Shown here one piece after another: positions 14,989 to 59,031 of a stretch of 64,000 nt of DNA (positions are counted from its first letter, which is position 1; the number at the start of each line of letters is the position of its first letter). Made by a program: the position numbers and the translations under genes. The notes beneath the pieces are model-generated. The model had not been told where the DNA came from. It saw only the letters and a program-made list of their open reading frames with translations, and did not search any database. The stretch comes from Pseudogymnoascus verrucosus (taxonomy: Eukaryota). The DNA is taken from assembly GCA_001662655.1 (NCBI GenBank), contig KV460210.1, one strand, 5' to 3'.

Positions 14989-16229
14989 TTTTCCAGACCT
15001 GTAAGCCGTCCTTAAAGATCAACCGCTCTGACGTGATATGTTATCTAAAGTCCCACAAAGTGTGAAGGGGATCACCCCACCTTTATCCCGTTGCGTCCAT
15101 CGATAGGTAACAGAGTTAACCTAAGTATATTAATTCCAAACATGCTATAGTGGTTGGGTATGGGGAAGTTAGCGTCCCATGTAATCTGGGCAAGGCTGGG
15201 CGTTGGGGGCCGTTTGTAGTAGGGGATGGGAAACTCTTGGAATATTGGGATCAGACGACCGAAAGAGGCAACTAGTCCTTTGAGCTTGGCGGGAGCCTAT
15301 TCTCTCCAGCGCTCATCACCTAGCTCAATTGCCGACCATAAAATATCTTTGTGCTGTTTCCGCTTCATTTTTACCTAATACTACCAGGACCCTGTTCAGG
15401 CAAGGGTTCCTCTGAGAGCCGCAATACCAATGTCGCGGTGAAGCGCAACGTCAAAAACGGACCCACTTTTTAGATGGCGGAGGTGATCGAGGTGGTCGCA
15501 TCTCAAAATATGGGAAAAGGCAGCAACGTGCCCCACCACTGTATTTATGCTCACAGGCACAACACCATTTACAACACCATTCACAATATACCGTAAACCA
15601 CAACTCATACCAGATGCCATGCTTTATTTCCCGCAAATTTGTTCATGAGACACCTAAGCGGAACTGGCAGAGGTCCCAAGTCTTTGTACTCGTTGTAGCT
15701 GACTTAAAACACTTGCGCAGTCTTATTGAGTTCACCAAGTTAGGTTTTGAGGGTATGCGACTTTGGTGGTACCGTTGGTAACAATGTCATCCGAGCTGGT
15801 CGGTGCGAGAAAGTTGTTAACTGCCAGCCGTGCATTATCGGAGATCTTTACTTGCTTTACTAACAAATTCTAAGACATTAACAGACCTGCGGGAACTTTA
15901 CATTCATGTCAGGTTTATACTAGTGCTACCTCATTAGACACCGTATAATGTTAGTTACACGTCAGAGTCGATAGTTTTTCCCAACTGTCTCACTTTAATT
16001 GGAAGCGTAAATCAACCCCTCTATAGCTCATATCTACATATATAATGGCGAGTGTCAATACAGAAAATGCTTCCATTTTTTCGATACAGTTTCACAGCAC
16101 AGAAACCCCATATAACACTCTCTACCAGCTCTTGTAAGCCACAAACCGCTCCCATCCTTACATGATAATTTATTATATTCTAACAAATCATCCATTCAGC
16201 CACCCTACCTCGATCAAACTTACACTACA

Positions 16230-37290: not shown

Positions 37291-39394
37291 TCACCACAGA
37301 CACACACATCTACCTCTCCATTCCCCTCCCTCCTCCCATCCCTCCTCCCATCCAAGTCCCCAAAAAGTACCTCACCGTACCACACCATCCCCCAACCAGC
37401 CCCCCCTACGACCCACTCCCCCCTCCCTTGGCCGTACCACCCACCGTACCATCCATCCACACTCTACCACCCACCCACCGCACGCTCATCTGCTTGGTGG
37501 GTGTATCTGCCGGCAGAGAGATACGTGGGTACTACTTCCCTTCCCCTTCCCAGCCCAGCCCCCGTCGTCCGCGGCGGATGTTGGCGATGTTATCGTCGCG
37601 GTACATGCCGGGGTGAGTAATCGTGATCGCTAGAGAAAAGGTAAGGTAAGGTAGGTAAGTATACCTCATCACCGTCAGCACGCGTGGACAGACACGCGAT
37701 ATCAATTATAAACCCACTCAACGTCAACAGCCCTCAACACACACCGAACTCACAGAAAACTTACGCCACAGAACAAGAAACGCGCCCAGACGAAAGAGGC
37801 GACGAAGAAACACGGCAGACCGGACACGACAAACCCGCCACCACTACACCTCCTCCTCCTCTCCACCGGGAGGCGACCTTCCCGAGCCAGCAAGCACGCA
37901 CTTGACCTTCCCTTCCCATCTCCACCCACCACACACACACACAAACCCATGTCCGGCGTCCCCCTCCTCTCTCTTCCTAGCCATAGCTACAGTACAACTA
38001 CGTCAACACCAACCCCCTCCCCTTCCCCATGCAGCCGCGTGCGCTGATCTAATCTCCCCCCCCCCAGCCATCTCGGCGTGAAAAGAGCATGGGAGTGGTG
38101 GTCGTGGTTGTGGCTATTTCGAGATGGTGCCTAGGCTGGTCGGAAATGTCGGAGGGAAGGGTGGTGGTGAGGGTGCTGGGCGGCGTCTCGGCGGGGGGGA
38201 GGGATGGGAGGCAGGAGGGATCCGGCGTGTGTGGTTGTGGTGGTGGTGTTGGGTTTGTTGTTGTGGCTGGTTTGGTGGTGGTGCAGATACGGAGGCGCAA
38301 GGAGGAGCGGGTGGTGGTGTTGGGGAACGGCTCATACGAAACGGCTCGTACGGATGGGCATACATTCCTTCCTACCTTCCTGTTCCCTCTATCCCATTCC
38401 AACCGACCGTTGGGGATGGGTTGATTAAAGACTGATAACTGACTGAATTGATATAACCACAATCACCAGAGTAGCCATTTCAGCCAAGCTTACGTGCATG
38501 GCTACGTATGAATTTGTACCATCCACCCACAACCATAGTATACAGAAAGTACACACCTGTACAGCGCTGTACACTATCGCTACATCCCCGACCACTACAA
38601 AAGGCTGTATCCCCCGAGTACCAGCTAGGAACGCACTGGACGCCGTCTCTGTCGCGATGGGTGGACGATCACTTTTAGCTGATTGCGGGGTAGCGGCGGT
38701 GGGAGGGAGTCGCGGTCGGTACTTTGAGTTTTGCTGGTGATGCTGCATTATAGTATAGTATATTCCGTGTCATCGTGTGTATGTGTGTATGCAAGCACGA
38801 CCGAGACGAAACATCAACATCAACATCACCCATCCATCTGCCATCTCCCATATCCCATATCCCAGTTCCTCAGCCACAATCACAATCACTATCACACACA
38901 TAATCACTCAAAATCCCAACACCCATCTCATCCCGCTACTATCCCCAACCATCTGCCTAATCCCCCAAAATAGACTTCCAGCCCCGGCCTTCCTCCTCTC
39001 CCCCCCCTAACCCCCTTGCTGCCACACACAGCGCACGCGAGCATACATACTCGCATATCTGGTTCGTCATGTGTTTGTGCCTGTGCTTCTGCTTCTGCTT
39101 TTCTCCGTCTGCGCCGGCCCTTGAGTCGCTCTCCCTTTTCGTAGACGGGGAATATGGACACACCCACGCACGGAGGAAGGGGGTTGCCAAGGCTAGTCCA
39201 GTACAGTTTGTTTCTTGTCCCGGATCTGCCCGTCTACGTACATGCGTCGTTCCTGATGGCCCCCCGGACGGACGCCTTTGGTCGCAGCACCCTTGGAAGT
39301 GCTACTTCAAGGGGCAGGGATATAAAAAAAACACCGGGCTGCGCGGCTGGGTGATATATATATCTAGACATGTAAAAAAAAAAACGGCAAAAAA

Positions 39395-39457
39395 ACATAC
39401 AACAGTGGGTATTCGCTGGTGGTCACCTACCCAACTACTAATCTACCGATCTCAAGC
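39395..39457 (-). rRNA. 5S rRNA: 5S rRNA, 3' half (nt ~57-119) of split copy 1
   Basis: Minus strand GCTTGAGATCGGTAGATTAGTAGTTGGGTAGGTGACCACCAGCGAATACCCACTGTTGTATGT followed by a T-run Pol III terminator. Confidence 0.92.
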
Positions 39458-40617
39458 AATCCTCTGGCTAATAGTTAAATCGGTGCCATCCGGCCTAGTG
39501 GGTGAGCCTCGCCGCCCTTACCCCTTGTTTTGTGATCGCAACCATCTCAACCACCCCTAAGTCTGTGGACTTGCACAGCTTCATTACATATCCCATATAT
39601 AATGGCTACCTTCCTGTAATGGGCACAGTACCGCAGTAGGTGTTACAGTAGGCGAAAGAGCAATGTGCAGTAAAAGACAGCACCGTGATATATAGAGTAC
39701 CGTATCGCTAGCAGCACAGAAACCATGTACTGTAATAAAGTTTGGTTACTGTAGAAGTTAAAAGACACCACACAGTAATATTTACAGTACTACATTCAAA
39801 GATGTAAGCGGCGATTACTATGAATTCGCGTGATTTCAGCCACTCACAGATCTACGGCTCCTGCGCTTAAAATTCGATCCGATATAACTAAAGCAACACG
39901 GATAAACAGCGACGCAGCCAAAATCGTGTGAGAATCCCCGGCTACCGTAATCTTTCCCTTAGCACACGGAACAGGAAGCTTTACAGTAACCGCAGTATAT
40001 AGGACTAATTAAATTACTACACTATTCTACAGGGCTTCGTACAGTATATGTAGAGCTTAAGGGGGGCCACAGAACCCTGAGTAATCGCCAGCTAAGCTGC
40101 TTAGAGCTCAGCTGTGATTGTGGCTACATCTTGGGCAGCACCACAGCCGCACCGAGCCATCCTGGGAGGTGGACGCTGTGGCTGGGGAAAACCTTCGGTT
40201 ACAGGGTTAATAACCCACCGAATCCCAGTCCGCATGTCCGCCTTCCTCCAACAGCAACCTAGATCCTTCAGAGGGAATGCGCCTTTAAATCTCAAAAATT
40301 CACGTAATTGTCATGAATGTAGTGACCAGTGTGCTGTTGCCGCTAAAGTAGCCACTTATATTGGAACGCGACAGTACAAACAACAGTAGCCCGTCCTGGA
40401 GACTTGCATGAGCTCAGCCTCGTTCTGTTGGCATCGCGCAGTCCACATTCATTTAATCCGCCATGTCAGCTTTTTCGTCACCTAGGCTTCGGAGTGCTTT
40501 ATTTTCTGACAGCTTGCTTCATCCTCTAACGTAAGGTCATCCCGCACAACCATTTTCCACTTCCATTTCGGATGCTGATGATTTTGACAGATTGTATCGT
40601 TCCACAACTATTGTAAC

Positions 40618-43600
40618 ATGGAGGCCATAGGACTAGCGGTCGGAATCGCAGGATTGGCGGGCCTGTTCAGTACCTGCCTTGATCTTATTGACAAGGCTAA
40701 CTCTTACAGAGACTACGGTCCTGAGTCACGCTCTGTTGTCGCACAGTTTGAAGCTAACAAGCTTCTGTTTAGAAGGTGGGCTCAAAGTGTTAGGATAGAA
40801 GAAGGCAATCCCAAGAACAATCATCATAGTGCTCTAGACAATCCCGCGACTGCTTTAGTGGTATTGAAAATTTTGTCGAGCATACAGGAAACCTTCAACA
40901 AGACCGAGAATGCCCTGTTAAACATGCAGCATGTGTCGACAGCCGATCCGAGCTCTAAGAGCTTTGACTATACGCAAGGCTCGAATCAGAATGTGGAGTC
41001 CAAGGTATCGACGTCGAAGCGCCATAAGATCGGATGGGCCTTGATGGGAAAGGCGAAATTCATCCAGCAAGTCCTTTAGTTTGGGGCTCTAGTCCAGAGA
41101 CTGAATAGCTTAACGTCTGTAGATCACTTAAAAGGTATTTCTTCTCCTCTTAGCCATTGGGTTTAAGTCACTCACTGATTGTAGAAAGTGATGTTGCCAA
41201 CCCTCGAGATTTTTCCAAATCGTAAAGCCTTCTGACTGAAGCACTAAAGTTGATCGAAGGTCAGATTGCGGTAGAGATCAAAATCGAAATCGAAACCTAG
41301 CTCGGTGCTACCTGGACCAATGGACTTTATGACAACTTTACTCGAAGTAGGCTAGACGGAACTTGTGACTAGATCTTAAGTAGCCCTTCATTTTTGGAAT
41401 GGGTCTCCTCCGAATTCCCGTCAGACTCTTCAAAGGTGCTGTGGGTCAACGGGCCAGCAGGATATGGGAAGACGACTATCTGTGCCAGGGTCGTCGAACA
41501 TCTGTCAACGATACTAAAATCTCCCCTCGCATATTATTTCTTTTCAGCCGACTTTGAAAGCCGAGGCGACCCCTTTGTCGTTATTCGATCCTGGATAGCA
41601 CAATTAGTAGCGTGTAATCGAACTGCCTTTGAAATCGCCCATGAAGAGTGGCAAGCAAAAGATGGCCATGTTGCATCTCGGACTGCCATCATGAACCTCT
41701 TTAAGCTCATCGTTAGCAGTCTACCAAACTGCACATTTGTCCTTGATGGGCTCGATGAATGCGCTTGGTTAGAGGCGAACCCAATGGCTACGGATGGAGA
41801 TGGCCGCACTAGTTTCCTTACATCTCTGATCGATACCATTGCAAAAACCACCACCCGAATTATGGTTGTTAGCCGTGATGAAGCTGATATTCGCTCGGGG
41901 ATATATAGCATACACCCCAGTCAGGGCGTGTACGAGCACAAGATTTCTCCCGTAGATGTTCAATCTGACGTTTCACTGTTCTCGAAGAGCATTGTCAACA
42001 AGAAGCTAAAGAACAAAGATGAAATGGTTAGAAATAATTTATCACAGAGAATAGTCGACCGCAGCAATGGGATGTTCTTATGGGTGAAAATGCAGGAGGG
42101 TAACTTGCGCGGGGGTAAAAGCATATTGCAACTGCAAGAAACAATTGATGAAACCCCGACAGGCCTAAGCCATCTTTACGATCGAAATTGGAAGAAAATT
42201 ATAGGCCTTCAACAGAGTGATAGAACTCGGGCGCTCTTAATTTTACGTTGGGCAGCGTTTGCGATGCGGCCTCTCACTGTCCTGGAAATCACAGAAGCCC
42301 TCCTTGTTATGGATGATGACGGCTATGACAACATCCTGGTAAACGGTCTCCTAGATGAGATTGATGAAGAGTACGTTAATAGTGAGATCAAGGGTCTCTG
42401 TGAGTCGCTTGTAGAGACTCGAGGAGCATCCACTAAGGGGAGTTTCGCATCAATGACCGTTCACCTAGCACACTTCTCAGTCAAGCAATATCTCCTACAC
42501 AACATGCCAACGTCTAGCCTACTAGGAAACAATATATCTTTACAGAGTAGCGAGGCCATTCAGTGCAATGAGCTAGCTAAAACTTGCCTGCGCTACATCA
42601 ATTTCCGAGATATTTGGCAGCAGCGCGTTTGTTCTAAGGACAGCGTTGATAGCCGGCCCTTCCGAGACTACGCAGCTACTTCATGGCATCGGCATCTTTT
42701 TCCTGCAGGAAAAAACTACACCGATGTACTTTCCCTGGTAAATCGACTGTTTCATCCTGAAAATATCAATTGGCAATCATGGGCAGCATGGTTTGATTCT
42801 GTTGAACCATTAGTGCCTACTAAGGATTTAAATGAAACAAGGTCGATGAGCCCACTGTACTATGTGTCACTTCTTGGCATCTATGATGCTGTTGTGTACC
42901 TAACAAAGGAGTTGAAACTTGACCTGAATTACGTTGGTGTAGGGCATAGAACACCATTATATGCAGCCTCATGGAAAGGCAACATCGATGTGGTTAAGGT
43001 GCTACTGGAGCTTGGAGCCGATGTTATAGTTGCGGATAGTAACGGAGCAACACCGTTAAAGCGTGCGTCACAACACGGGCACGTCAAGGTAGTCAAGGTG
43101 CTACTTGAGCACGGGGCCAATGTCACTGTTGCTGAAGAAGGAGAAACACCGTTATATATTGCGTCATACAATGGGCACGTTGACGTAGTTAAGGTGCTAC
43201 TTGACTATAGAGCCGATGTCACAATTGCTCTTAGAGGATGGACACCGCTAAGTGCAGCTTCTAGCGGTGGACACGTTGATGTGGTTAGGGTGCTTCTTGA
43301 ACGTGGAGCTAACACAACAATTACAAACAGCGATGGAATGACACCACTATATTTAGCATCAATTTATGGATATGTTGATGTGGTCAAGGTGCTACTTGAG
43401 CATGGAGCTGATGTTACAGTTGCAAACATTACTGGATGGACACTGCTAAATGGAGCATCAAGCAGAGGACACGTTGATGTGGTTAGGGTGCTTCTTGAAC
43501 ATGGAGCTAACACAACAATTACAAACAGCAATGGAATGACACCACTATATTCAGCATCAATTTATGGATATGTTGATGTGGTTAAGGTGCTACTTAAGCA

Positions 43601-45152
43601 TGGAGCTGATGTTACAGTTGCAGACATTAACGGATGGACACTACTATATTTAGCATTAAGCAGAGGACACATCAATGTGGTTAGGGTGCTTCTTGAACAT
43701 GGAGCTAACATAACAATTACAAACAGCAATGGAATGACACCACTATATTTAGCATCACTTAATGGATATGTTGATATAGTTAAGGTGCTACTTGAGCATG
43801 GAGCTGATGTTACAGTTGTAAACATTAACGGATGGACACCGCTAAATGCAGCTTCTAACAATGGACACGTTGATGTGGTTAGGGCGCTTCTTGAGTATGG
43901 AGCTGATGTAACAGTTGCAAACAGCGATGGACTGACACCGCTAAATGCAGCATTAATTTATGGATATGTTGATGTGGTCAAGGTGCTACTTAAGCATGGA
44001 GCTGATGTAACAGTTGCAAACAGCGATGGACTGACACCGCTACATGCAGCATTAGTTAATGGATATGTTGATGTGGTCAAGGTGCTGCTTGAGCATAGAG
44101 CTGATGTTACAGTTGTAATGGATAATGGATGGACACTGATAAATTAGGAATATGGAAATATTTTGGGATATGCCGTACATAATGCTAAGGCATCATTGGT
44201 ACAGCTTCTGCTTGAAGTGGATACAGACACAAACCTTAGCAGCGACGATTATGGACAAGCCTTACAACTTGGATGCATTAATGGTAATGTACCTATTGTC
44301 GACGCACTAATATGTGCCGGAGCAGATCCCAATAGGGTAGATGAGCATGGATGGACTTCACTATGGTGTGCTTCACAATTTGAGCAAGATGTTATTATGG
44401 AGCGGCTTGTTGCATGTGGAGGAGATCCATCTTTGGCCACACGAAATTCGACACTCGCACTAACGTCGTGGAGTTTAGTAGATAAGTCTCCTCGCCTAGT
44501 TTTAAACGAGGATGCTATTACCATTAAATATGCTAGTAAGTATTCCCTACGCCCTGAGAAATTCGCGTTACTGATCAAAGTAATCGCGAAGGCATAGAGG
44601 GGAACGGAAAGGCGAATGCGGCAGCAGCTCGAGCGAACCACCCAATTTCTCTCTAGAATGCTCCTTTTTACTTTGAGATTACAGTCCTGGATAGTGGTGA
44701 TACAGGGTAATCCGTCTCTCAAATCTTTGCTGCGTGTGCTAACATCTTTTTCTCCTAGAGAGATTGGGTTAGGTCTCTGTAGTGGGTATGCACCCATTAA
44801 CGCTATGCCTGGGTGGAACCTTTCATCGTGGGGATATCATGGAGATGACGGCTACATCTATAACTCATTAGATACAGGGAAACCTTACGCTGATGTATTT
44901 GGGACTGGGGACGTCATTGGGTGTTGCCTCACCTGTGATAATGAAATTACTTTTACTAAAAATGGGATTTCCCTTGGTAAGTTAGTTAATATCTTTTGTT
45001 GGCTATAGACAAGCTAATACTACAATCTAGGAAGTGCAATGAAGGCCACAGAAGGCAAACTATACCCTGTTATTGGCATGAAAAGTTGTGGTGCTTGCAT
45101 TCGAGTAAATTTTGGCAATGAGCCTTTCCAATGTGATTTCGCGCTAATCTAA
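40618..45152 (+). pseudogene. NLR-like HeLo-NACHT-ankyrin-SPRY gene with RIP-type nonsense mutations
   Basis: HeLo-type N-terminus (GLAVGIAGLAGLFSTCLD); Walker A GPAGYGKT; Walker B VLDGLDE; more than 10 ankyrin repeats; SPRY motifs MPGW..SWGYHGDDG, GDVIGC, LYPVIG; in-frame stops at 41077, 41223, 41298, 41370 and 44145. Confidence 0.9.
43150..44140 (+). repeat. Array of highly similar 99-bp ankyrin-coding repeats
   Basis: GGATATGTTGATGTGGT(C/T)AAGGTGCTACTT and GGACACGTTGATGTGGTTAGGGTGCTTCTTGA unit types alternate. Confidence 0.9.
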
Positions 45153-45391
45153 GGGGCGACCATTTTACTAGAGTGGAAAGCTTGCAAGAATTGGAAAGGA
45201 TGTCTGTTAACAGGGTGCGAGCTGGGGTGCCTGTTGACGAGTTCCCTAGATCTATTGTTGGGGCGAAATCGCTTTCTAGGGCTTACGTTTAGATGGAGAT
45301 ATGCTAGATTTCAATGCAAGTCCACAGGTCCCATGCCCCGATTCCGCGCTATGCCTATTGGCACGATTGAGACTATTAGCCAGAGGATACG

Positions 45392-45452
45392 CAAGCTTGT
45401 GTATGGCAGAGCGGACGGGATGCCCAATTCCCTTAAGTCTATGGTCGTATGT
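45392..45452 (-). rRNA. 5S rRNA: 5S rRNA, 5' half (nt 1-61) of split copy 1
   Basis: Minus strand ACATACGACCATAGACTTAAGGGAATTGGGCATCCCGTCCGCTCTGCCATACACAAGCTTG; TATA-like element ~25-30 nt upstream. Confidence 0.92.
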
Positions 45453-45754
45453 GGGAGTTGTGCAGTTGTTAGTGGTGATATATACTATCCCCCCTCCCCC
45501 ACCCGATATAGAGAAAAAAGGCGTAAATAGTTCCCCTACCTAGATCTGCCTGTCTATGTACATATATATAATAGTAGGTATTCGTAGGAGGAATATAAAG
45601 ATTTAGATGGGTAGATTACGATTTCTAGAGATTCGTTGTGTGATTCCGTAAGCGTGAACTAAAATGTAGAATTATATAGTACGATGGCATTTACTTACAT
45701 AGTAGCTCTAGAGGCTATTCCGCATGTTACAACTAAACAACTAGTGCATCGAAC

Positions 45755-47371
45755 TTAGCAGGGTCTTCCTAGGATAACTCTAAATAAACCCCTAAGTAAT
45801 AGGACCAGCGCCGCCGCCACCACTGCCGCCGACTCCGACGCAGACCGCACGGCTGTCGCTTACGCCAAGACCAGAATACACCCCTGTGTCACAGTTAGTC
45901 CCGATCCAGGGGTTCCAGGATGTTAGTTGAGCAGGCGTGATATCGAAGTCCTCAGCGATGTCAGAGCAGAGCTGTAGTCCGACAGACCGGCCATCGACGG
46001 CCGTAAAGCAGGTACATGTTGATATTATTCCCGGATGCGGGTGGTCGGCGTAGTATTCAAGGAAATCGTCTTCTATGATTAGGGCTGAGTTTTTAATAAC
46101 TCATGTTAGCTTTGCGAGGTGGTTTAGTGTGTCTAAATCGTGCTCACGGACGGCATGGGGTCCGACTTACGGGGCAGAAACGAAGTGCCGTTTAAACCGC
46201 AGTACCTGTATCCCTCCTGTAGCATGCACGGATCTACAGATGCTAGGCTCGGGTTCCATGAGAGGAAGTCGGCAAGCGGAACCTCAAAGACCGTCGTGGT
46301 GTAGTCGCAGGTATTAGCATTATTGATGATGGCGACTGTATCCGGGTGTACACTCTAGTCGGTGATTGCGGGGATGGAGAAGTGGTCGATGTAGCCGTCG
46401 CAGTCGGATGGGGTTCCAGGGGCGATTGGGAGTTCGACTATGGGCGTTATGATCGGTTCTGTAGTTGAGAGAGGTTGCGTCGTAGTAGTGATAGTGCCGT
46501 CGCCTAGGTCGTCTCTAGGAGGACTGACGCAGATTAGAGTCTCGGCGAGGGGATCAAGATTCGTGCAGAGCTGGTTGATATTAGGGTTCCAGTTCAGGAG
46601 ACTAATGTCGTTCATGTAGCTGTGCTGTGCCAGGATACTCTCGCAAGTCTCATTATACTTCACATGGTATAGATCACAAGGACTTGCAAATTCAGGGTCG
46701 TAGCCAAACGGCTAGTTTAGCTGGGTTTGCACGACCCCAAGTATGCAATCAGAGAAAGTTTGAGCTAATGACAATGGGCCGGATCCCAACCAAGAGACAA
46801 AGATCTCATCGCAAAACTGGCCTATAGAGCTGCCGTTATATAATCAGCGTTAATGACTGATCGGAAGCGGTTTCGACAGAGGGGGGGGAATCAACAAGAC
46901 CTACGTGTCTTTTCTACACGAAAGATCGTATGTGTATAAGAAACGATCAACTACATAAGTAGCTGTATACCAAATATAATTAGCTATAGATACTTATTAG
47001 GCAGAAACAGACCGAAGATGATCGAGCTATAGATGTCTAGACGGACCAGGCTAAATGACGCCGTCAAACTCAACAACATCAGTGTCTAAATTGCAGCCCA
47101 AGGCAATGGTTTGACGGACGTTTGTTAAAGCTGTACAGCAAGCTGGAGTGCATAATGCCGTGAACTGCTCTAAGTCGAGGCGCGGATTAGTAGCGGAGAC
47201 GCCTATCAGAAAGCTAGGGCAGTTGGGGGCAGTCGTGTTGAGAGCTTCCATGCAGTTTTCGCTAACTCCTAGATAGTCTAACTCCATCGCCGTATCTTTA
47301 AACTGTTAAGCGTTAGCGCTACTGGCTAGATGTGCTAGTAGTAAAAGTGATAATGAACAGGTGAGTGTCAT
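45755..47371 (-). pseudogene. Secreted LysM-domain protein pseudogene
   Basis: Signal peptide followed by TAA; C..ALNTT..C N-terminal domain; YHVKYNETCESIL...LLNWNPNINQLCTNL...ICVSPP LysM; PIAPGTPSDC; stops and frame breaks. Confidence 0.8.
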
Positions 47372-48173: not shown

Positions 48174-48230
48174 ACATACAACAGGGGGTATGTATTCGCT
48201 AGTGGTCATCTACCTAACTACTACTACTAA
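48174..48230 (-). rRNA. 5S rRNA: Degraded 5S rRNA 3' fragment (split copy 2)
   Basis: + strand ACATACAACAG..TATTCGCTAGTGGTCATCTACCTAACTACTACTACTAA aligns to 39395-39441 with small duplications and transitions; preceded by the same GGCAAAAAA terminator flank. Confidence 0.8.
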
Positions 48231-48408
48231 AAAATGAGCTTGCTCCTGTTAATTAAGTCCCGTGGTTTATATTCGTTTGTGATAAATGTACTATGGGACA
48301 ATAGTAAATGTTATGAAACAAAACAGCACTTGGGACATAGAACTTCTTGATGGTGATAAAAGAGTGTATTGGGTATATTATCTTTCTAGCTTTACAGACC
48401 AGCTCTAT

Positions 48409-50215
48409 CTATATAAGAAGCCAGTCATAGCCCAAATGGCCGACACTAAATATCCACTGCGGCGAGGATAGCTCCCCATAATCCTCCCGTGTCCAGTATT
48501 CCTGCAAGATCTTAGAGGCATTGACCGCATTCAAGCAACTTGTTTCCGCCCAAAATTGCGCCAAGCAACTGGTTAGAAAATCCCTTTGGGCTTGCGACTG
48601 ACACTCTAGGCCGGCAATGAAGATAGGCCAGAGGATACACTTGAACAAGATTTGGTCGTCCTTTAGTGCCTCGATAACACCTAGTAATGCACAAACCAAA
48701 TCATCCTGCGACGTGACATTACCCGTGAGAGCATCAAGTACACGCCTGCCATATATGAGAGAGCCAAGCTGGAACGATTGTGACAACTTGCAAAGCTTAT
48801 CTATACCCTGCATCGAAGGCGACGGTAGTTGCGGGAGCAGGCCCGATGCCCACATGTAGGAATCGAAATCCCGTACAGACTCAAGCATGGTAGTGATGTG
48901 TCGGGTGTGGGAGAGGATGGCGGTGTCGTCTGATGGCGCCTGGTCTGCGATGATGTCTCGCTGGAGCGAGAAAAATTGTATGGCGTGGAGGAGATGATCC
49001 GGACATCCGAGAAAGGATTGCTGGACCGATTCCTGGGGCGGCGTGCCAGACTGGTCTAAAGAGATCGGCTGGGATAGTAGCCTAGGGCGTGCAAAGGTTG
49101 CTCCGAGTGTTTCAATCCTAGTATTGTATTAGCAATTCATCTACAATCTATGCGAATTGATAGTTCTGTGCGGATATACATACAGATAGATCTGTCTGGT
49201 GATGAAACTACGTATCGCCTGGACAGTTCGCCCGGGATCCAGCTCGTTGGCAGTTTCCAACCCAGATGATGGCCAAATGGACGCAATTAAGTTCTTAGCA
49301 CCTTCGAGATGAAAATTCCATCTATCACAGCCGGACTCCAAGAGGTCTAGAAACACCAGGAGGAATATACTAGCCGCTATGGTGTCTTGCCTACGTGATA
49401 CTGCATCGTTTAACGCAAGTGATAGCGCTTGAATGGCTTGACATTTGTATAAAAGCGCATCCTTGTCGGAGGTGCTTGAGGCAGGAGGTGTCGCTAGCAG
49501 AGGCTGCTGGCGGAAGAGATAATGTCTATTGGCGTTATGCCGTGCTGCAAGGGCTAGAATTGCCTTGAGTAGAGTTGAGTCACCCAGAGCAAGAGATATT
49601 AGGTTCCGAAAAGGATTCTGGTCACTGTCGTACACAATGAATAACTTGCATATGCATCTATTGTCTGCATATTGATGTTAAATCCCTTCTGGGAAATTTG
49701 CTAGTGGGATTGAAAACTTCTATACTTACAGTAATCTAGGTAATATCCGGAGGCTCTGTCCAAGCTTGAAACAGAAGGATCTTTTAGAGATAATGGTAAG
49801 CTTGATAGGGGGCCGCTGATATTATTGGTATCTGATTTTATTAGTAATTAAGTCCATTTAAATATGATACCGAGGAAGGATTTTTCTCGAGTAACATCAA
49901 GATCAGCTATAGTATTACAGATTTCTCACCATTGTACTTAAAACCATTCGTCACCGGCAGCTTTGGGCGTGTAGCAGAGGACTTGATTAAATCACACCTC
50001 GTGCCTGTTGATGTCCCATTGAAGTTTGCTGCTGCAATCGAGGCGTCCTGGACTGATAGTCCTCGCATCTTGCCTCGAACGGACATGCCTTTTACCCATC
50101 TGATGGGCCTCTTCTCGGAACATTCCAACCCCGCCTTTTCACATTTCGCACAGGGCATTCGGGATCTGTCGCATTCAATGTGCCGACGGCGGCACGTGTA
50201 GCAGGGAGTATACAT
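48409..50215 (-). CDS. Zn2Cys6 transcription factor with Fungal_trans_2 domain (Acr-2-like), multi-exon
   Basis: CYTCRRRHIECDRSRMPCAKCEKAGLEC; QNPFR, HLEGA, LWPIFIAGLEC motifs. Confidence 0.88.
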
Positions 50216-50624
50216 TGCGATTTATACCAGAGAAATCAACAATGGAAGGGTAGCCATGTACAGCAGCTGCAACGCAGGCACTATGACGTATTCACGCGGA
50301 ATCCTAAGAGCTGGGTTGCTATTGTAGCAGAAAATAATACAAGAAATGTAAAATGGGAAATCAAGAGGACAGACAGGTATCAAAGAGTGGTCTGCCGTTC
50401 GCCTTCGTTGTCAGATGGGATTTTCAGTGGCGAGAATAACTGATGGTACCAAGTCCCGATTACTAAGCAATTCTTGTACATTTATCGGGACCCGCCAAAC
50501 TTTAATAGTTGAGTCACATAGTTCACAACCTATGCAAGATCGTGGCAATTTCAGATTGTGGAGGACTTGCTATCTTAAAAGTTTATATGACAATCGCCGT
50601 GGGCCCTGGGACAACGGCATCAAG

Positions 50625-51404
50625 TCATCCCCGTTTATGAGAGTCTTTCAGCTGGCCACGTTCCCCAACCGTCTTTGCGATTCCCTCACCAACCTCCGTC
50701 CCCAAATTCTCAAAGCCGTTGATGACTCCCTCCCGATCTCCCTTGCTAAGCTCCTGACTCATTTTAAATTTCCCCCCCAAACGATCAATCCTGATCTCGA
50801 TTCCGATGATATTCTTCTTCATAATCTCAATATAGGGAGACGGCGCGTCGGACACCTCCCATGGCGACGACTTATCTCCTCCAGTATAGCCCATGATCAG
50901 CGACTCGGATTGCTGAGTCAGGTCTCCGAGTTGCTTCCGTAAGAAGGAACTCGTCTCGTCCGACTGGGAATTGCAGTAGACCCTGACCTTGCCGTACACC
51001 TCTACCGCAGAATAGTTCCAGGTAGGAACCACCTTCCCGGAGTCTGGTTTGGTTTCAACGTAGAATTTAGGCGTGACATAGTGGTGGTGTGGTCCATTGA
51101 AGAGAACCAAGACTTCATCCAAGAGCTCAAGTGTATCGTGACCCTGCTCCTTTCTAGCTGCTACCGCCTCCATCAACACCTTCGCTTGCGGATTTTGCTT
51201 TGCAATATGACCCCGCAGTATTCCATTTGACAATGTTCCGTCCGCGGTCTCGGGAACATCTAATACAAAAGGAATATGACTCGCTAGGATCAAGGGATGC
51301 TGTGGTGATCTGATTGCCGTCGTCAGAATGCCCAGGGGATTCTCCCGGATCAGTTGTTGTAGAGCGGGAATATGTGCCTCCGCGTGGATCCCTCGGAGAT
51401 ACAT
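50625..51404 (-). CDS. PaiB / FMN-binding split-barrel family protein (PAI 2-type)
   Basis: MYL..H, SHIPF, GHIAKQNPQ, YVTPKFY, VPTWNY, GKFKMSQ motifs; intronless. Confidence 0.9.
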   Translation of the reverse strand: MYLRGIHAEAHIPALQQLIRENPLGILTTAIRSPQHPLILASHIPFVLDVPETADGTLSNGILRGHIAKQNPQAKVLMEAVAARKEQGHDTLELLDEVLVLFNGPHHHYVTPKFYVETKPDSGKVVPTWNYSAVEVYGKVRVYCNSQSDETSSFLRKQLGDLTQQSESLIMGYTGGDKSSPWEVSDAPSPYIEIMKKNIIGIEIRIDRLGGKFKMSQELSKGDREGVINGFENLGTEVGEGIAKTVGERGQLKDSHKRG

Positions 51405-51829
51405 TGTGAGTGTTAAAGAAATAGATAAAATTTGCGAACACTGTCCGCAGTCTAAATGTGATGCTCTGCTTCCCGAGAAGTATATTTATTCATCAAGTAT
51501 ATCACGGGACTTGCAACTTCAACTGGGTATACCTCGGGAAATACGTTAGTGTGGTTACTTTTTTAGGAAGTTAATGGGAGTGGAGCTGTCAAAGCGATGA
51601 CGCCAACTCCTACAAGGATAAAGTCTGTTTTGGGCAGTTAACTGGAGTGGGGCGAAACTATGGAGATCACCACTAACGAAATCGACACCAAGGTAATCGA
51701 AAGACTAAGTAAATAGGCTATCTGAATATAAATATCAGTATTGATGCGTAAAGAGAGCAGTAAGATTCATTTCTCCCTCTATTTTCTAATTTTTTTCTCT
51801 TGAAGCACTTTCTATTCTATGACCTCAAA

Positions 51830-53087
51830 ATGCCAGTACAAGAGCATAACCACCCCGCTACCCGAGCATTGCATGCGGATGATCCGTTAAATCTAGTAAC
51901 TGATGTCGCACCGCCAATGCATTTGTCAACGACATTCAGGTATCCCAGCGAGCTCGAGAAGCTTATCCCGTCAGAAGATCCAGTCGTGGGTTCCCATCCT
52001 TACCTGGGCTTCTTGCCCTATGGTTTAAACAAGAAACTGATAATGTGCCATCTAGGCAGAATTTGATGGGAAAAATTATGTCTACTCCCGGGAATTTGCA
52101 CCGAATGCAACGCGATTTGAAGCCATTCTATCCTCTCTTCTCCAGGGCCACGCCGTGTGCTATGCCACTGGATTGGCCGCCCTTCACGCTGCACTATTAC
52201 TCCTGAATCCTCGTCGCGTATCAGTAGGCGAAGGATACCATGGAAGTCATGAAGTAATATCAGTTATTTCCCGTCTCTCGGGGTTGCAGAAATTGGGTCT
52301 TGACTGCCCGGCAAGCGACTTAGAAAAGGGAGATGTAATCCTACTTGAAACCCCAATCAACCCACTAGGGACTGCTTTCAGTATTGAGGAATATGCTAAG
52401 AAGGCTCATGAGAGAGGTGCCTATCTTGTTGTAGACAGTACGTTCGGTCCACCTGGCTTGCAAGACCCATTCTTGTGGGGGGCTGATATAGTCATGCATT
52501 CGGGGTCGAAGTATCTTGGGGGCCACAGCGATATGTTATGTGGCGTCCTCGCAACGCAGCGTCAGGACTGGACAAAGCAGCTCTTCGAGGATCGCTTTGC
52601 CCTTGGGCATGTTATGGGAAATTTGGAGAGTTGGCTGGGTGTTCGGAGCTTGCGGACGTTGTCAATCCGTGTGCAACATGCCAGCCGGAGCTCTGCAAAG
52701 CTGATTGCGTGGCTCCACGGTTCTCTCAATGAACCGAATCCGATTCCTAACAGTGAAGCGCATGTTGTACAGGCGGTTCTTCAGAAGATTTTTCATGCGA
52801 GTCTCCAAGATGAGCCTTGGGTACGGAGGCAGATGCCGAACGGCTTTGGCCCGGTCTTTGCTCTCGTTCTGCGCAACGAGGAATTCGCTCGCGGATTGCC
52901 AAGAAAATTAGCCTTCTTCCATCATGCAACAAGTTTAGGTGGAGTGGAATCTCTCATTGAGTGGCGCGCAATGTCTGATGCCAGGGTGGATCGAAAGTTG
53001 CTGAGAGTTAGTATTGGATTGGAGGATTGGGAAGATTTGAAGAACGATCTACTGCAGGCATTCCGGTCGCTAGTGGAAGAGCAGTGA
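51830..53087 (+). CDS. PLP-dependent Cys/Met-metabolism enzyme (cystathionine gamma-synthase/lyase, YHR112C-like; intron ~51986-52055)
   Basis: DVAPPMHLSTTF, YSR, LETP.NP, VDSTF, HSGSKYLGGHSD PLP lysine, ATSLGGVESL, LRVSIGLE. Confidence 0.92.
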
Positions 53088-54080
53088 TTGTTTTTTGCTT
53101 ACTATATCGAAATCCAAAAATATGCAAGATGAACTCTCATCGCAATATAGTTATCTCAATCTTCTTATGCACCACCATACATATCTATCCACGGTCGCTA
53201 CGTAGATAAATACGCCAATTCAGCTCAACTACGGATGGGCCATATGTATAAGCTGGTCACTTGTTGGTTAATATATACCATCACCACCCCCCAATGATTA
53301 TGGCTTCATTGACTATTTTTATGCCGGCAAAGCTAAGATTCTCATCACGACCAACAACCTCCTCCGTGGTCTCAGCTTTGAGTCAGTATCGCTAGTCATC
53401 TTAGACCATATTCCAACGAATGGCCGGGTCAAAACAGATCCTGACTACGATACCTACCTGTATCATATTAGTCGTTTATTTTGTCTTGGATCAGAGGGGA
53501 AAACATCGTCTAACCAGACCGATGGACCTGACATGAACGCAGTTCGAGCCACAGGAAGACTCAAGCCAGAGATGGAACTATAAAACAAATAGCCGCAAAC
53601 CCCTGCCAGCCCCCAATCCTTTTTCCCAACTAACCATCCCATGCGCCCTAGTTCCTGAAACAGGTGATCTTGCTTCAATTGCCGACAAAAGGACACTGAA
53701 AGCTTAGAGAGATAACCCATAAGAATACTTTCTACTAAACCCCCCACAAGACCCCGTAGAAAGCCGTTGAAAGGACTATAATAGAGATCAGGGAACACTA
53801 GATATGGACTATATATGGACTTTCGGGAGACATAACAGAAGAGAAGGAAGTAAAATCATCTGGTAGACTAGTGCCCTTCAGGTTTAGAGCCGGGCGAATA
53901 GACCTCATTCATTCCATCCACTTATAACTCAGATGTAACATGATTAAACATTTCCAAGCGTATTGCATAGATCTATAAGTGACTGCACTTCACTCGGCTC
54001 AATTTCGTACTAAAAGTAGGTGCAGACTTAGTCCCTGTTCTTTCGGGGAGGTTTCAGGAGGCTAGGGGAGAAATAATATC

Positions 54081-55496
54081 TTAGAAGCACTTGCTCTTAA
54101 GGCAGTCAGGAAGAGGAAATCAGTGGCATCTCAGACGTACCACAAAATTAGGCGTGGGGCTCCAATACCAAAGGCTGACCATCGCGTTGTCGGAGTAGCC
54201 ATCAATGTACGTATCCGCGCAAGCAACAGTAAGTTGATTATTCTCGACATAGTCAGTGTATGCGATCGCAACGCCGTCTATGACGCCAGAAGTGTCATAA
54301 TTCAGTTTTTCATAATCAAGCCTGCACGAGGATTAGACCAAACTCTAGATAGCAGACATTTCGTTTACTTACTCAGACTCATCTACATCGCCCCAGTAAA
54401 TATATGCGGACCAATCAATTTCCCCATCACTTCCGTCCCGCTCTTATGTTCAGAGAGTATTAGCACTTGCGTGTTTATCAGTAATTTGAGAGTTGAGAAA
54501 ACAAGGGTCAAAACACTTACCATTGAAGTCTCCCTGATCTTGCCGTTTATTCTTTGAGGACGCGTGCGAAAGTGTAACATTTCATGTAAATTTCAACCCG
54601 CGAAGATTGCTAGCGCTGTGGCGGAAATAGTGCAAGTGGTAGAAGTTACCTGGTGTTGTAATGTTGCTAATAGCAGTAAATTCTGAAATGGGAATTAGTC
54701 TTGTTTATCAAAACTATAAAGGGAAAGAGCGAGTGCACAGGCAAAGAATCAGCACGCCACATCCAGAAAATTCCTTAGTGGGAGATGGTATGTTCTTAGA
54801 GATATATGGTAGTTGTGGACTTACTATCATGGGGAGCAGTAGCTGCCAATGTGCTTCTCAAGCTGCTGTTGACAGTTGGGATGTACCTAAAGAGCAGAAA
54901 ATCAGTAAATGCCGATTTGAGGGTAAAGTGTGGGCATAAGAGCATTGGAAACTAGAAATAGTTTGACCACAAAGTGCTTAACTCATCAAGATCAGGGATT
55001 GAAAAAAGGAGAGCTAATATTCTTACTGGGGGTCTAGAGACCACACGACTTCATCAATAGCCCGTTTTGTAGCTTCCTAGGCAAAGTAGTTTGCTGCTGC
55101 AAATGTAAAGAAGAAAAGGGCCAAATTAAGAGCACAAGCCCCTCCAGCGGTAAGGACTCCACCGATATAGCATGAACCTACCAAACTCTTTGCGAAGCCT
55201 GCAGCAATACCAGCCCAAACGGCAGCAAGGACGCCATTGTTAACACGCTTTTCGTGTTCTAGGTAGGTTGAAACGCCGGTTGGACCACGTGGTGCAATGT
55301 CAAGGTCACGAGTAGTTGCTGAAGATGGTGCGTCCCATCGGGTGATATTAGTCAATCTCAATGGAGATTCGATCTGGTCGAAAGCGAGAGATCGGAACTT
55401 CAGGTTTGGTGACATGACTTGGACATCCACAGAGGCTTGGGTAAGAGCGACGAGGGCGAAGGCCCCGACTGCTAGCAAAGGCAAGTAAGTCTGCAT
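54081..55496 (-). pseudogene. Secreted preproprotein with Kex2 sites, hydrophobic Gly/Ala helices and acidic C-terminal domain; in-frame TAG at 55079-55077
   Basis: Signal MQTYLPLLAVG..; EKR|VNNGVLAAVWAGIAAG..C..C; frame continues EATKRAIDEV after the stop; downstream exons with GT-AG signals; 3' end approximate. Confidence 0.55.
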
Positions 55497-56119
55497 GTTG
55501 ACGTGAATAATGTGAACAGGAAGTTGGAATTTTGTCTCCAAGAGAGATGCTGTCCTAAAAATGGAACCATGCTGCGTTTATATCTTCGAGGCTTCAAGGT
55601 TGAGGAATTTAATTGTTGCTTCCCTTCAATCCATGTTGGTTTCGCCGATTGGGTTGCAACTTGCAAAATGCCATTGCTGCATGAGACTGCTCGTATAAGG
55701 TCGCAAGGTTCTCATCCTTCGATAACATCCTAACAACGTACTTTGTCCCATGTGCGCAGGGGACTTGACGCTCGTTCTCTTCGGACTTAGACCGCACTTG
55801 CTGACTCTTGGCCTGGCTTCGAAATGGGTTGAACAACTTTGAATCCTAGCATAGCTGGTACTCGAGATTTCTAAAAGTATTTGCGTATATTTCACCCATG
55901 CCTATATATCCGCAACTAGCTCAGGCTCATAACTCGGCGAATTGAATGTAGTGCAATCTCGTTATCTGTACTAGGGTTATTTTGCCGGTGGTCGCCCCCA
56001 AATCCAGGGGCCTTGCATTGCGCACGGACATTCCGTCCATCAAGCTTTCTGCGAAAGCTTGATGACCCGTCAAACCAGTCTCCCACTTTCTTTGTCAACG
56101 ATTTTTCACGTCTTCAGCG

Positions 56120-56680
56120 ATGTCCAGAACCATAGAGACTACAACAGCGACGCCGCCGCAGCGAGATCCATCGCAGTCTCATGTCGTGGTATCAAGATCA
56201 CCTCGGCAGTCAGCGTTCTGTGCCATTTTCACCATGCTCATCGCCGTCCTTCTCTTCAACCTCGCCGCTTACACCGTCACCGCCATATACACTTCTCTCA
56301 CGAGCACGCCCACTGTCTTAAGCTCTACCAAACTCCGAGCAAGTGATTGCGAGTGTCCTCTCCCTCAACAGCAACAAGACTGGCTCGTCCCCGCACCAGC
56401 AATCACCAAACTCTGCTTTATAGCCAACCTGATGCTAGGCATGGCGAGCGGAGCTCTGCTGGTGGTTGCGTTCCTCTGGTGGATGACAAGTGCGTCAGAG
56501 GTGTCTATCTCTGTGAGGAATTATGCACTAAGATGGGGAATTGGGGCTGGAATCGTGGGACTTGTGTTAGTGCATATTCTGTTTATGAAGAGGTTAGTGG
56601 AGGGCGGTGGATTGGTGATGGCTGTTAATACTATTCTGGGCTTGGCTTTGACTGGATTGGTATTTGGTACAATGGAGTGA
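56120..56680 (+). CDS. Hypothetical integral membrane protein (~4 TM)
   Basis: 186-aa ORF with four hydrophobic segments and coding-like codon bias. Confidence 0.6.
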   Translation: MSRTIETTTATPPQRDPSQSHVVVSRSPRQSAFCAIFTMLIAVLLFNLAAYTVTAIYTSLTSTPTVLSSTKLRASDCECPLPQQQQDWLVPAPAITKLCFIANLMLGMASGALLVVAFLWWMTSASEVSISVRNYALRWGIGAGIVGLVLVHILFMKRLVEGGGLVMAVNTILGLALTGLVFGTME

Positions 56681-58970
56681 TCTACATTTAGGAGCTTGGA
56701 CTCGATCTAGAATTCTCTAGAGAAAAGGAGGTGTTGAGATGGCTCTTCGGGTACGATAAAACTGGCTTATTTAGACAAGCATCTAAAACCCAAAGAATCT
56801 GCATTATCCTCAACAAACCCACTCATTAGTGTATTGAACCTTTGCCACTCCCCAAACATCACCTCAGTATGTAGATTAAGCGGATTGGAACAGACAGCAC
56901 ACAATGTATGTTCCTGCCCATGAGTGGGAATAACTCATGGCTGGGCCGCAACATATATTAATTCTACAATGCCCAACTGCATTGCAGATGCGTAATAAAC
57001 CCTGACCCTAAAATCCAACTGCATCATAGGTGCCTGATAGACCCTAGCCCTGAATAATATTATCCCAATACCTGTGAATTTGCCATGGCTGTCTCGGTGC
57101 TTAGTAAGATGGATCACCATTGCGGCAACACATAGCTTTTATACCCAATGATATGAAAGCTGAAAGGACGGCAGGCGTTCTGCTAAAAATGGATTTGGAA
57201 CAGCCGCAGCCGCTGGGGGGTTTGCCATCTATGGCCATATTTGACGGCAGATTCTCCAATCAGTTAACCAGCACTTTATCCAGTGGTCCAGTGTGACTAG
57301 ACCATCGAATGGACCCTCATGGTGGGGCATTATGGTGCAATATGAACAGGGCCTACCCCGCTCCTAACAATGTGGCAGCTACAAGTAATATTTTCCCGGG
57401 CTACATCCATTAGACTAAATTGGTTCTGCTGTTGGAAATCCATGTCCCGAAGCCCAACAACATCGTGAGCATATCATACCTCTGTCTGATTCTAGTTCTG
57501 AAATCCAACACCTTTTTGAGCATCTCATACCTTGATCTGATCATAACTCTGAAATGCAACCTGCATCTCTAACAATACAGGATCTAGCCGGTATTGGTTT
57601 CAAAATCCTACTGCATGGTGAGTACCAAAATAATTTCAAGGTGTAGATCCAAAATAAAGCAGATCATCTAATGATAGTTCCGAAATCGACCAGGATAACA
57701 AACCTAACTAGATGGCTACTGGGCATAAACGACAATTATATATAGGTTAGCTGCAAAGGTCATATAATAGTAGATGGCGGTTTGAGGTAGAAATACTCAA
57801 CGCTGCCTTATGCCTCAATTGCTCACGGTTTAGGTCAATAGATTCGTACAAATAAACATACAAACCATTCTTAAGTATTACAAAACGCCCCTGTTACTAC
57901 AGACTCTGCTCGATTGGCCAGTATATAGCGCCCCTTACACAGTGCATACGGAAAAGGCTGGGGGCGTGGACACCGACCGAGATTAGGGGCCCATGAGGTT
58001 GTTGGCGATGTTGGTTGCAAGGGTGCTAACTCTGCCTAAGCAGGTATTAGGTTGAACAGGTGAAACCTCTGAGAGAATAGACCCGATATGACTTTGTTGG
58101 TAAAAACTGCAGGCCTAAATGTGATTTTTAACCGTGTATGCATGCGCGACGCGGTGCTGGATAATATCTTGCAACTCTCTAGTACGGGATACGGGACAGG
58201 GGTAAGCAGCGTTTAATCATACCAGACTACGGAGGAACACCCTGCACCTTTCTCATTGTGAATGCTCTCCGACCATTTACCCCAAACCACCAAACACCCA
58301 CCATCCACCCCTGCCATTCTTTCGGCCATAAGCCCCCACACTGTTTCGAAGATTCAGGATCGATCATGACATATGCATTTCCTTAGTATCCTAGCCAGAT
58401 CTCAACTAGGCGGGCAACTGGCGTTCGACGGGAGCTAATGGTAGTAAATCTCCGTGTTGCCCTGTGATGGAAAAGGTGGTAGAGCTTTCTGAAAGATCGT
58501 GTAAAAAACTCGTGCCCAGTGGGACAAAGACCATAATGAGATTAAGATTGACGACTAGAAGAAGTTGACAAGTCCGTGAGAAGCTCGAACGTCGTCAAAA
58601 ACTCCAAGTTACGTGAGATTCATAAATGTATGTAGTCACCGCTGCTTTATATTCTGCCACTAACTTGAACTTTTGTGTTTTTGATGTGGTAATTAAATAC
58701 TTTCGGGCATAACGTGCCTCAAACTTATGGCTCACAAATGATTAAATTGACTGGAAAATAAGATCAGGACACCCTTAACATGGTATGTAAGCTACAAAAG
58801 CCAAACTTCGGTGCTGATACAAAAAAATGGCACGAAAGTGACGCCAAATTGACACGAAAATGTTGCTTCGCCTCACCCACACTCGCTCTGGTCACCCCCC
58901 GCGTCACCCTTCAGGCTGAAAAGGGCCTCGATTCTGTTAGCACGATTGAGACCATTAATCTGATGTTACA

Positions 58971-59031
58971 CAAGCTTATGTATGGCAGAGCGGACGAGAT
59001 GCCTAATTCTCTTGAGTCTATGGTCGCATGC
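58971..59031 (-). rRNA. 5S rRNA: 5S rRNA 5' half (split copy 2)
   Basis: + strand CAAGCTTATGTATGGCAGAGCGGACGAGATGCCTAATTCTCTTGAGTCTATGGTCGCATGC aligns ungapped to 45392-45452. Confidence 0.9.

What the first reader, a model, noticed from the sequence alone, without database searches (positions are those of the whole stretch)
39395..45452. A 5S rRNA gene split by a 5.9-kb captain-less 'mini-Starship' carrying one NLR gene
Seen: the 3' half of a 5S gene (39395-39457) and its 5' half (45392-45452) lie in the same orientation 5.9 kb apart and overlap by CAAGC. Removing 39458-45391 plus one CAAGC rebuilds a 119-nt 5S. The insert ends carry a perfect 17-bp inverted repeat (ATCCTCTGGCTAATAGT; imperfect to ~30 bp), set 1 nt from the left DR and 3 nt from the right. 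Established: Starships are tyrosine-recombinase (DUF3435 captain) elements with short DRs and asymmetric TIRs; some target 5S rDNA; they often carry NLR genes and are normally tens to hundreds of kb. Inference: this is a very small non-autonomous derivative, mobilised in trans or reduced by internal deletion, that shuttles a single immune-receptor gene between 5S loci.
Basis: partly seen in the sequence, partly recalled or inferred. Interest (0 to 1): 0.93.

Follow-up and report, generated by a model that had tools for sequence, protein, structure and literature searches.

The report
Shrunken Starship remnant splitting 5S gene
A fungal 5S ribosomal RNA gene is cut in two by a 5.9-kb leftover of a giant 'Starship' transposon that kept both of its ends but lost the enzyme gene that moves it and carries one broken immune-type receptor gene, so it is a real, unusually small and probably stationary form of a known kind of mobile element.

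Summary
Observation confirmed: 5S halves, CAAGC direct repeat, 17/17 inverted repeat with 1/3-nt spacers, 119-nt rebuilt gene. Closest protein hits are Pseudogymnoascus. The ends are Starship ends: a metagenome contig has the same 5S junction and left terminus followed by a DUF3435 captain (L015), whose relatives map to the Enterprise family (mapping inferred). Five more loci have the right end at the same 5S position with unrelated flanks. No captain trace lies in the window. Against 'shuttling an immune receptor': the NLR has six RIP-type stops; the family's subterminal repeat arrays are gone; two other runs hold it with the same flank(s), and a third has the NLR on a contig that runs on 27 kb instead of ending. 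No empty allele and no second site were shown. A second, more decayed insertion splits another 5S gene 2.7 kb away. Best reading: a captain-less deletion derivative, now inherited vertically (0.7); movement in trans stays open (0.18). The scan reported similar captain-less 5S inserts on other DNA (unchecked).

The parts
39395..39457 (-). 5S rRNA gene A, 3' half (nt 57-119), with the T-run terminator just beyond
   Evidence: weak RF00001 hit
39453..39457 (+). left direct repeat CAAGC (5S nt 57-61, antisense)
   Evidence: 5 shared letters at the intact junction
39458..39555 (+). left (captain-side) Starship terminus; core inverted repeat 39459-39475
   Evidence: 86% over 181 bp (39375-39555) to L015, where a DUF3435 gene follows
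39563..39575 (+). left arm of an inner perfect 13-bp inverted repeat, just inside the point where likeness to the captain-bearing end stops
   Evidence: I6; 2 of 20,000 random pairs of 100-nt pieces reach 13
39556..40617 (.). non-coding stretch where the captain should be; no captain remnant; 10 ACAGTA motifs
40618..45152 (+). HeLo-NACHT-ankyrin-SPRY NLR pseudogene; stops at 41077, 41223, 41298, 41370, 44145, 44654
   Evidence: open homologue P0001
45315..45327 (-). right arm of the inner 13-bp inverted repeat
45337..45391 (+). right Starship terminus, cut down to about 55 bp; core inverted repeat 45372-45388
   Evidence: alignment to L006, L009, L016, L017, L018 and element 2
45392..45452 (-). 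5S rRNA gene A, 5' half (nt 1-61), including the right direct repeat 45392-45396
48174..48226 (-). 5S rRNA gene B, decayed 3' part
   Evidence: 84% over 50 columns to gene A
48230..58970 (.). element 2: about 10.7-kb captain-less insert of the same family; left end not recognisable, right end 58934-58970; carries Zn2Cys6/Fungal_trans_2, FMN_bind_2 and Cys/Met PLP-enzyme genes
58971..59031 (-). 5S rRNA gene B, 5' half, broken at the same CAAGC
15427..15560 (-). solo remnant of the family's left subterminal region, with no 5S half beside it
   Evidence: 83% over 92 bp to L015 155-245

Best explanation
A captain-less deletion derivative of an Enterprise-family (fam06) Starship that targets 5S rDNA in Pseudogymnoascus. 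Shown: the ends, the target position and orientation, a captain behind a homologous left end, the absence of a captain here, the dead NLR. Inferred: a DUF3435 tyrosine recombinase bound the 17-bp core repeats, which in an excised circle would face each other across 9 nt (3+5+1), and recombined them into 5S nt 57-61, leaving the 5-bp overlap at both ends and killing that 5S copy. The element then lost the captain, its subterminal repeat arrays and downstream cargo, with breaks about 98 bp and 55 bp inside the ends. It has since been inherited in place, and in this lineage light RIP-type mutation killed the NLR.
For: L015 has the same 5S junction, 86% identity over 181 bp and a DUF3435 gene starting about 370 bp inside. 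6 of 19 metagenome pattern hits are true relatives, all at the same 5S position, and the 1/3-nt spacing is kept; the seven right-end flanks compared are unrelated. A six-captain profile finds L015 at E 3e-142 and nothing in the window (best E 37). GTGAG/CTCAC arrays: 13 in the L015 left end and 7 in the L009 right end, 1 and 0 in this element. X2 holds insert and both flanks almost unchanged; X3 holds NLR, right terminus and the right flank at about 98%. In X7 the NLR lies on a 31,965-bp contig whose match stops at 45336, where the right terminus begins, and which runs on about 27 kb. Six stops, all of CpA/TpG type; 10 of 12 window-T/A differences from P0001 are at CpA/TpG, background 0.34, p 6e-4.
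Against: Direct and inverted repeats are still perfect, and both core repeats carry the same variant base (C39468/G45379) where most relatives have A/T, which fits a recently active sub-family. Two deletions each stopping close to an end are needed, and both stop beside a 13-bp inverted repeat that this reading does not explain. X2 shows a single-copy-depth joint 40468 to 45267 (30 letters on the short side) that may be an NLR-less sibling. No contig shown links this element's own ends to a captain, and the 27 kb in X7 were not readable. 7 of 24 differences from P0001 run the other way and the composite RIP index of the gene is negative, so RIP is light.
Confidence: 0.7

Rival explanations
1. 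A non-autonomous mini-Starship: it was already small and captain-less when a fam06 captain encoded elsewhere inserted it here, and such minis are a mobile class of their own.
For: Perfect ends and target. HhpA restores excision in trans in the laboratory (PMC10104507 passages). Family left ends stand in 13, 19, 9 and 16 contigs of four runs, whereas 8 Pseudogymnoascus genomes fully listed in one part of table S4 have 1-8 size-filtered fam06 recombinases; these are other genomes and unitigs can split. Possible NLR-less sibling in X2; contigs in X3 and X9 hold both ends (joint 39520 to 45346). RIP-type damage 1.9 kb from the ankyrin array could record a past second copy.
Against: Only one site is known for this interior in the runs laid; subterminal arrays lost; longer context in X7; many captain-less ends are also what decay in place leaves; RIP may have spread from the tandem ankyrin repeats (recalled). 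The laboratory mini-element kept 3.8 and 1.9 kb of ends.
Confidence: 0.18
2. Nested structure: a tiny pair of Starship ends (about 150 bp) into which a separate NLR cassette bounded by the inner 13-bp inverted repeat was inserted or swapped.
For: The inner repeat is perfect, rare by chance (2 of 20,000) and sits just inside both points where family likeness stops; GT stands directly outside both arms; the NLR has another right-hand context in X7.
Against: The X7 match continues 9 bp past the right arm; a 2-bp duplication has a 1 in 16 chance; no transposase in the insert; the repeat was noticed after the fact; no known superfamily was matched to it.
Confidence: 0.08
3. Assembly artefact joining paralogous 5S copies, or a cut-and-paste (DDE) transposon with a 5-bp target duplication.
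For: None of the contigs shown bridges this locus's own junctions; unitigs break in the 5S repeats (table 8, cut). Inverted repeat plus 5-bp repeat looks like a DDE element at first sight.
Against: A run of another study (X2) holds insert and both flanks; both junction types stand within single contigs of X2, X7 and six metagenome loci; the repeats are set back 1 and 3 nt; the homologous end leads to DUF3435, not a transposase.
Confidence: 0.04

Closest known systems
Enterprise-family (fam06) Starships that target 5S rDNA, e.g. Osiris of Aspergillus fumigatus (PMC11162782 passages and tables S3, S4, S7, S9; bioRxiv 2024.06.28.601215 passages)
   Same: Insertion inside 5S rDNA, short direct repeat, inset inverted repeats, fixed orientation, fam06 captain behind the homologous end, several insertions in neighbouring 5S copies; target here includes a palindrome, as described for Enterprise itself.
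   Different: No captain; 5.9 kb, below the 15-kb floor of the starfish catalogue; single dead cargo gene; Leotiomycete host. Whether the site equals one of the five mapped 5S sites was not checked (tables S11-S15 not held; figure not held).
Derelict and other captain-less Starship remnants (Macrophomina phaseolina; bioRxiv 2021.12.13.472469 passages)
   Same: Starship cargo kept, DUF3435 lost, persisting in place.
   Different: Here both ends and the target are intact and the captain is cleanly gone; the passages read describe Derelicts by cargo, not by ends.
Voyager (family 10; same preprint)
   Same: Targets dispersed 5S genes and fragments them.
   Different: Other captain family and other site (20 bp from the 5' end versus nt 57-61); autonomous and about 90 kb (table S1).
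miniHEPHAESTUS (engineered; PMC10104507 passages)
   Same: Shows that a captain can act in trans on an element with a broken captain.
   Different: Synthetic, other family and target, kept kilobases of each end.
Fungal NACHT-ankyrin-SPRY NLRs (PMC12258605 passages)
   Same: C-terminal SPRY after ankyrin repeats, 46 cases in Sordariales.
   Different: Nothing new in the architecture; this copy is a pseudogene.

Membership tests
Starship (autonomous) | DUF3435 tyrosine recombinase as first gene inside the 5' end | tested here: not met
   No PF11917 in the insert's frames; tblastn and a six-captain profile find nothing in 64 kb, L015 as positive control
Starship (autonomous) | Short direct repeats at both boundaries that rebuild the target | tested here: met
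   CAAGC twice, 119-nt gene; intact junction with 5 shared letters in other runs
Starship (autonomous) | Terminal inverted repeats set in from the direct repeats | tested here: met
   17/17, spacers 1 and 3 nt, kept in relatives
Starship (autonomous) | Empty orthologous site | tested here: inconclusive
   No contig shown joins the two flanks across an intact 5S
Starship (autonomous) | Same element at two or more sites | tested here: inconclusive
   Ends at many loci, this interior at one known site; four runs only, output cut
Starship (autonomous) | Size of 15-700 kb with cargo | tested here: not met
   5,934 bp, one pseudogene; range from PMC13562431 passage, 15-kb filter
Enterprise family (fam06) lineage | Captain falls in fam06 | tested here: inconclusive
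   Holds for relatives of the L015 captain (82% and 58% identical over one exon) by an inferred match to table rows; no tree built; this element has no captain to place
Enterprise family (fam06) lineage | Ends homologous to a captain-bearing member | tested here: met
   Left end 86% over 181 bp to L015; right end matched only to loci whose captains could not be seen
Non-autonomous element moved in trans | Excision or new insertion when a captain is supplied | not testable with these tools
   Needs an assay or long-read population data
DDE cut-and-paste transposon | Inverted repeats flush with a target duplication; transposase in relatives | tested here: not met
   Repeats inset; relative encodes DUF3435
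Functional fungal NLR | Open HeLo-NACHT-repeat reading frame | tested here: not met
   Six in-frame stops, four upstream of the NACHT P-loop

The most novel reading that the evidence does not exclude
Pseudogymnoascus 5S genes are colonised by a class of small captain-less Starship derivatives, more numerous than their captains, which need only short ends and are moved between 5S copies by Enterprise-family recombinases in trans, carrying single NLRs or small gene sets: a natural non-autonomous tier of Starships that catalogues miss because they start from captains and drop elements under 15 kb.
Probability: 0.18. Interest if true: 0.7.

Novelty: new variant of a known kind. Interest (0 to 1): 0.4.

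Why it matters
As a remnant it shows how a Starship decays: captain and subterminal arrays go, the core ends and one cargo gene stay, and neighbouring 5S genes record successive insertions. It supplies ends, target site and a candidate captain for a Starship lineage in a genus where the catalogue rows I saw (6 of about 21 genomes) list recombinases but no elements. It also makes an open question testable: how little end sequence a captain needs. If about 100 and 55 bp suffice, natural minis can be moved in trans and the pair would be a compact site-specific integration system for fungi.

Tried and rejected
No whole genome is held, so genome-wide counts of ends, 5S copies and captains could not be made; accession numbers and neighbouring locus tags of the NLR homologues could not be looked up. 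Empty allele: X9 holds the left flank (39123-39415) and right flank (45514-46807), has no cover over the NLR, and all its left ends at 39468 are of the A type; this fits an empty or differently filled site, but no contig joins the flanks and a hole proves nothing. X7 has no cover over the flanks; same caveat. Depth sums were not used as copy numbers. Only 4 of 12 listed runs were laid; small-share runs X5, X6, X8, X10-X12 and the best holder X1 were not. Pattern scans: viral contigs 0 hits; prokaryote genomes 2 hits, taken as chance and not examined; 13 of 19 metagenome hits have no 5S or further likeness. Captain exon against viral contigs: none. L006, L016 and L018 end within about 70 bp inside the element; L009 and L017 interiors gave no captain and no NLR. 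Likeness of element arms to 5S arms is weak (10/20 at the best of four offsets, 7/20) and is not counted. The Myb gene at 33.5-34.8 kb looks like host DNA. Literature: no paper held 'Starship' with any of five phrases for captain-less or miniature elements; 'captainless' occurred in none of 14 listed; Pseudogymnoascus with Starship gave one unrelated review; the repeat's 9-mers are not in the held part of the starfish supplement. Scan look-ups by place and sequence were empty.

Full report
Observation. The 5S gene is on the minus strand, with its 3' half at 39395-39457 and 5' half at 45392-45452; CAAGC stands at both joints, and removing the 5,934-bp insert with one copy gives 119 nt followed by a T-run. 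The inverted repeat is 17/17, inset 1 nt on the left and 3 nt on the right, and occurs nowhere else in the window with up to three mismatches. Rfam sees only the 3' half, below its cut-off. The uninterrupted junction exists in contigs of all four runs laid. The break at nt 57-61 lies in helix II and, from my own knowledge, in the box A region of the internal promoter, so this copy should be dead.

Host and cargo. The best of 402 hits to the NACHT part are Pseudogymnoascus proteins at 98, 89, 86 and 78%. P0001 is an open HeLo-NACHT-ankyrin-SPRY protein; that architecture is known (PMC12258605, passages). The window's gene has six stops (41077, 41223, 41298, 41370, 44145, 44654) where homologues have Q or W. 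Of 24 residue differences from P0001 scored outside the ankyrin array and the C-terminal part, 12 fit window T/A against C/G, 10 of them at CpA/TpG (background 0.34, p 6e-4); 7 run the other way and 5 are other changes. This fits light RIP; the composite index is not raised. P0001's model lacks 17 residues near 41300 and may hide a lesion of its own. X2 differs at only four places between 39494 and 43298, none a stop, so it shares the first four stops.

The ends are Starship ends. A pattern built from both repeats gave 19 metagenome loci, 6 of them true relatives. L015 has a 5S 3' half, the same joint, 86% identity over 181 bp to 39375-39555, and then a multi-exon DUF3435 gene from position 465. 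L006, L009, L016, L017 and L018 have the right end followed by a 5S 5' half at the same position; their flanks and those of the two window elements are unrelated. The 1/3-nt spacing and orientation are constant. Six full-length relatives of the captain came from Pseudogymnoascus and Venustampulla. This match is inferred and no tree was built. The same paper says that most Aspergillus members of this family target 5S and that Enterprise's own target is a palindrome; Osiris is an example. Here the empty site contains an 8-bp palindrome over nt 54-61.

What this copy lacks. Pfam scans of the insert's frames, tblastn with captain exons, and a six-captain profile over all six frames with stops read as X find no captain remnant in the window. 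Likeness to the family stops at 39555 and resumes at about 45337. The family's subterminal arrays (GTGAG 13 times in 300 nt of L015's left end; CTCAC 7 times in L009's right end, 3 in L017's) are absent (1 and 0). Just inside both break points lies a perfect 13-bp inverted repeat, reached by 2 of 20,000 random pairs; I cannot explain it.

Other genomes (four runs, contigs only, tables cut). X2 holds insert and both flanks. X3 holds the NLR through 45369 and the right flank from 45432 at about 98%, with fewer ankyrin repeats. X7 holds the NLR at about 96% on a 31,965-bp contig that stops matching at 45336 and runs on about 27 kb. Family left ends with A at 39468 stand in 13, 19, 9 and 16 contigs, and loose-end consensuses match the family's subterminal sequence. 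No contig shown joins the two flanks over an intact 5S, so the empty allele is not demonstrated, and no second site for this interior was seen. X2 has a joint from 40468 to 45267 with 9 letters between and 30 letters on the short side, perhaps an NLR-less sibling; X3 and X9 have contigs with both ends.

A second element. Another 5S gene is split at the same CAAGC, same strand: decayed 3' part 48174-48226, 5' half 58971-59031, right end 85% alike over 104 bp including the 5S half. Its 10.7-kb insert carries a transcription factor, an FMN_bind_2 gene and a Cys/Met PLP enzyme, no captain and no recognisable left end. X2, X3 and X9 cover it, and X7 has the three-gene set in another context. It is more decayed than element 1. 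Clustering of insertions in neighbouring 5S copies is described for A. fumigatus.

Mechanism. Shown: target, orientation, ends, captain behind a homologous end, loss of captain and arrays, dead cargo. Inferred: the captain binds the 17-bp cores, excises the element as a circle with the cores 9 nt apart, and recombines it into 5S, the 5-bp repeat being the overlap; the circle is a hypothesis in the PMC10104507 passages read. I put 0.7 on insertion as a larger captain-bearing element followed by deletion in place, 0.18 on insertion as a ready-made mini by a captain in trans, 0.08 on a nested cassette and 0.04 on artefact or DDE element. For the trans reading: perfect ends, a symmetric variant base in both cores, trans-complementation in the laboratory, and more ends per run than fam06 recombinases per listed genome (1-8 in 8 genomes), though these are other genomes and decay in place gives the same excess.

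Comparison and novelty. It works like, and descends from, a 5S-targeting Enterprise-family Starship, but fails the captain and size tests for membership. Captain-less remnants are in print (Derelict; 'remnant Starships ... are common'). Elements under 15 kb were removed from the catalogue, and searches found no description of natural captain-less minis with intact ends; subscription papers, bioRxiv supplements and tables S11-S15 were not visible and may bear on this. Of each paper I read passages found by term, plus for PMC11162782 supplement searches and parts 1 and 206; PMC12506042, PMC13486527 and PMC13562431 added only background. The scan's own notes report similar inserts in other genomes; I did not check them and do not count them as support. 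Verdict: new variant of a known kind, interest 0.4.

Noticed in passing
window 48174-59031: Second split 5S gene with a 10.7-kb captain-less insert of the same family carrying a transcription factor, FMN_bind_2 and Cys/Met PLP-enzyme genes; the three-gene set lies in another context in X7.
   Followed up: partly
window 15427-15560 (-): Solo remnant of the family's left subterminal region with no 5S half beside it.
   Followed up: partly
window 39556-40618: ACAGTA occurs 10 times on both strands (9.4 per kb against 0.55 for the window); unexplained. Part of this stretch (40008-40248) also stands on other contigs of X2, X3 and X7.
   Followed up: partly
window 39219-39269, 45530-45567, 48031-48087: A short flank motif is shared downstream of both 5S genes and upstream of gene A (82-87%); the two 5S loci may come from a local duplication.
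   Followed up: no
L006, L009, L016, L018 right ends: The five letters at the right joint are the same in all four although the pairing strand of helix II differs in L009 and L018: a hint that part of the repeat is brought by the element, but later C-to-T change explains it as well.
   Followed up: partly
L015 1740-1745; P0124: The captain has HAIC where four relatives have HAIR, the presumed catalytic H-x-x-R motif (recalled); it may be inactive.
   Followed up: no
L015 3680-4731: A metallo-beta-lactamase-fold gene follows the captain; the fam06 element aspnid3_s01917 also carries a Lactamase_B_2 gene.
   Followed up: no
window 58393-58798 and 40323-40327: X3 and X9 lack 406 bp of element 2 with 5 letters shared at the joint; X3 has about 220 extra bp at 40323-40327 with a 5-bp overlap: small insertions.
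   Followed up: no
window 45795-46711 (-): LysM-domain gene between the two split 5S genes (weak Pfam hits).
   Followed up: no
beyond window 59119 in X2: The same X2 contig meets another 5S 5' half further on, and other contigs place right ends within about 30-40 nt of 5S 3' ends: 5S copies and element ends are clustered.
   Followed up: no
window 53272-53580 and 14154-14341: Weak Helicase_C fragment in element 2; a 78-bp direct repeat at 14154/14269.
   Followed up: no
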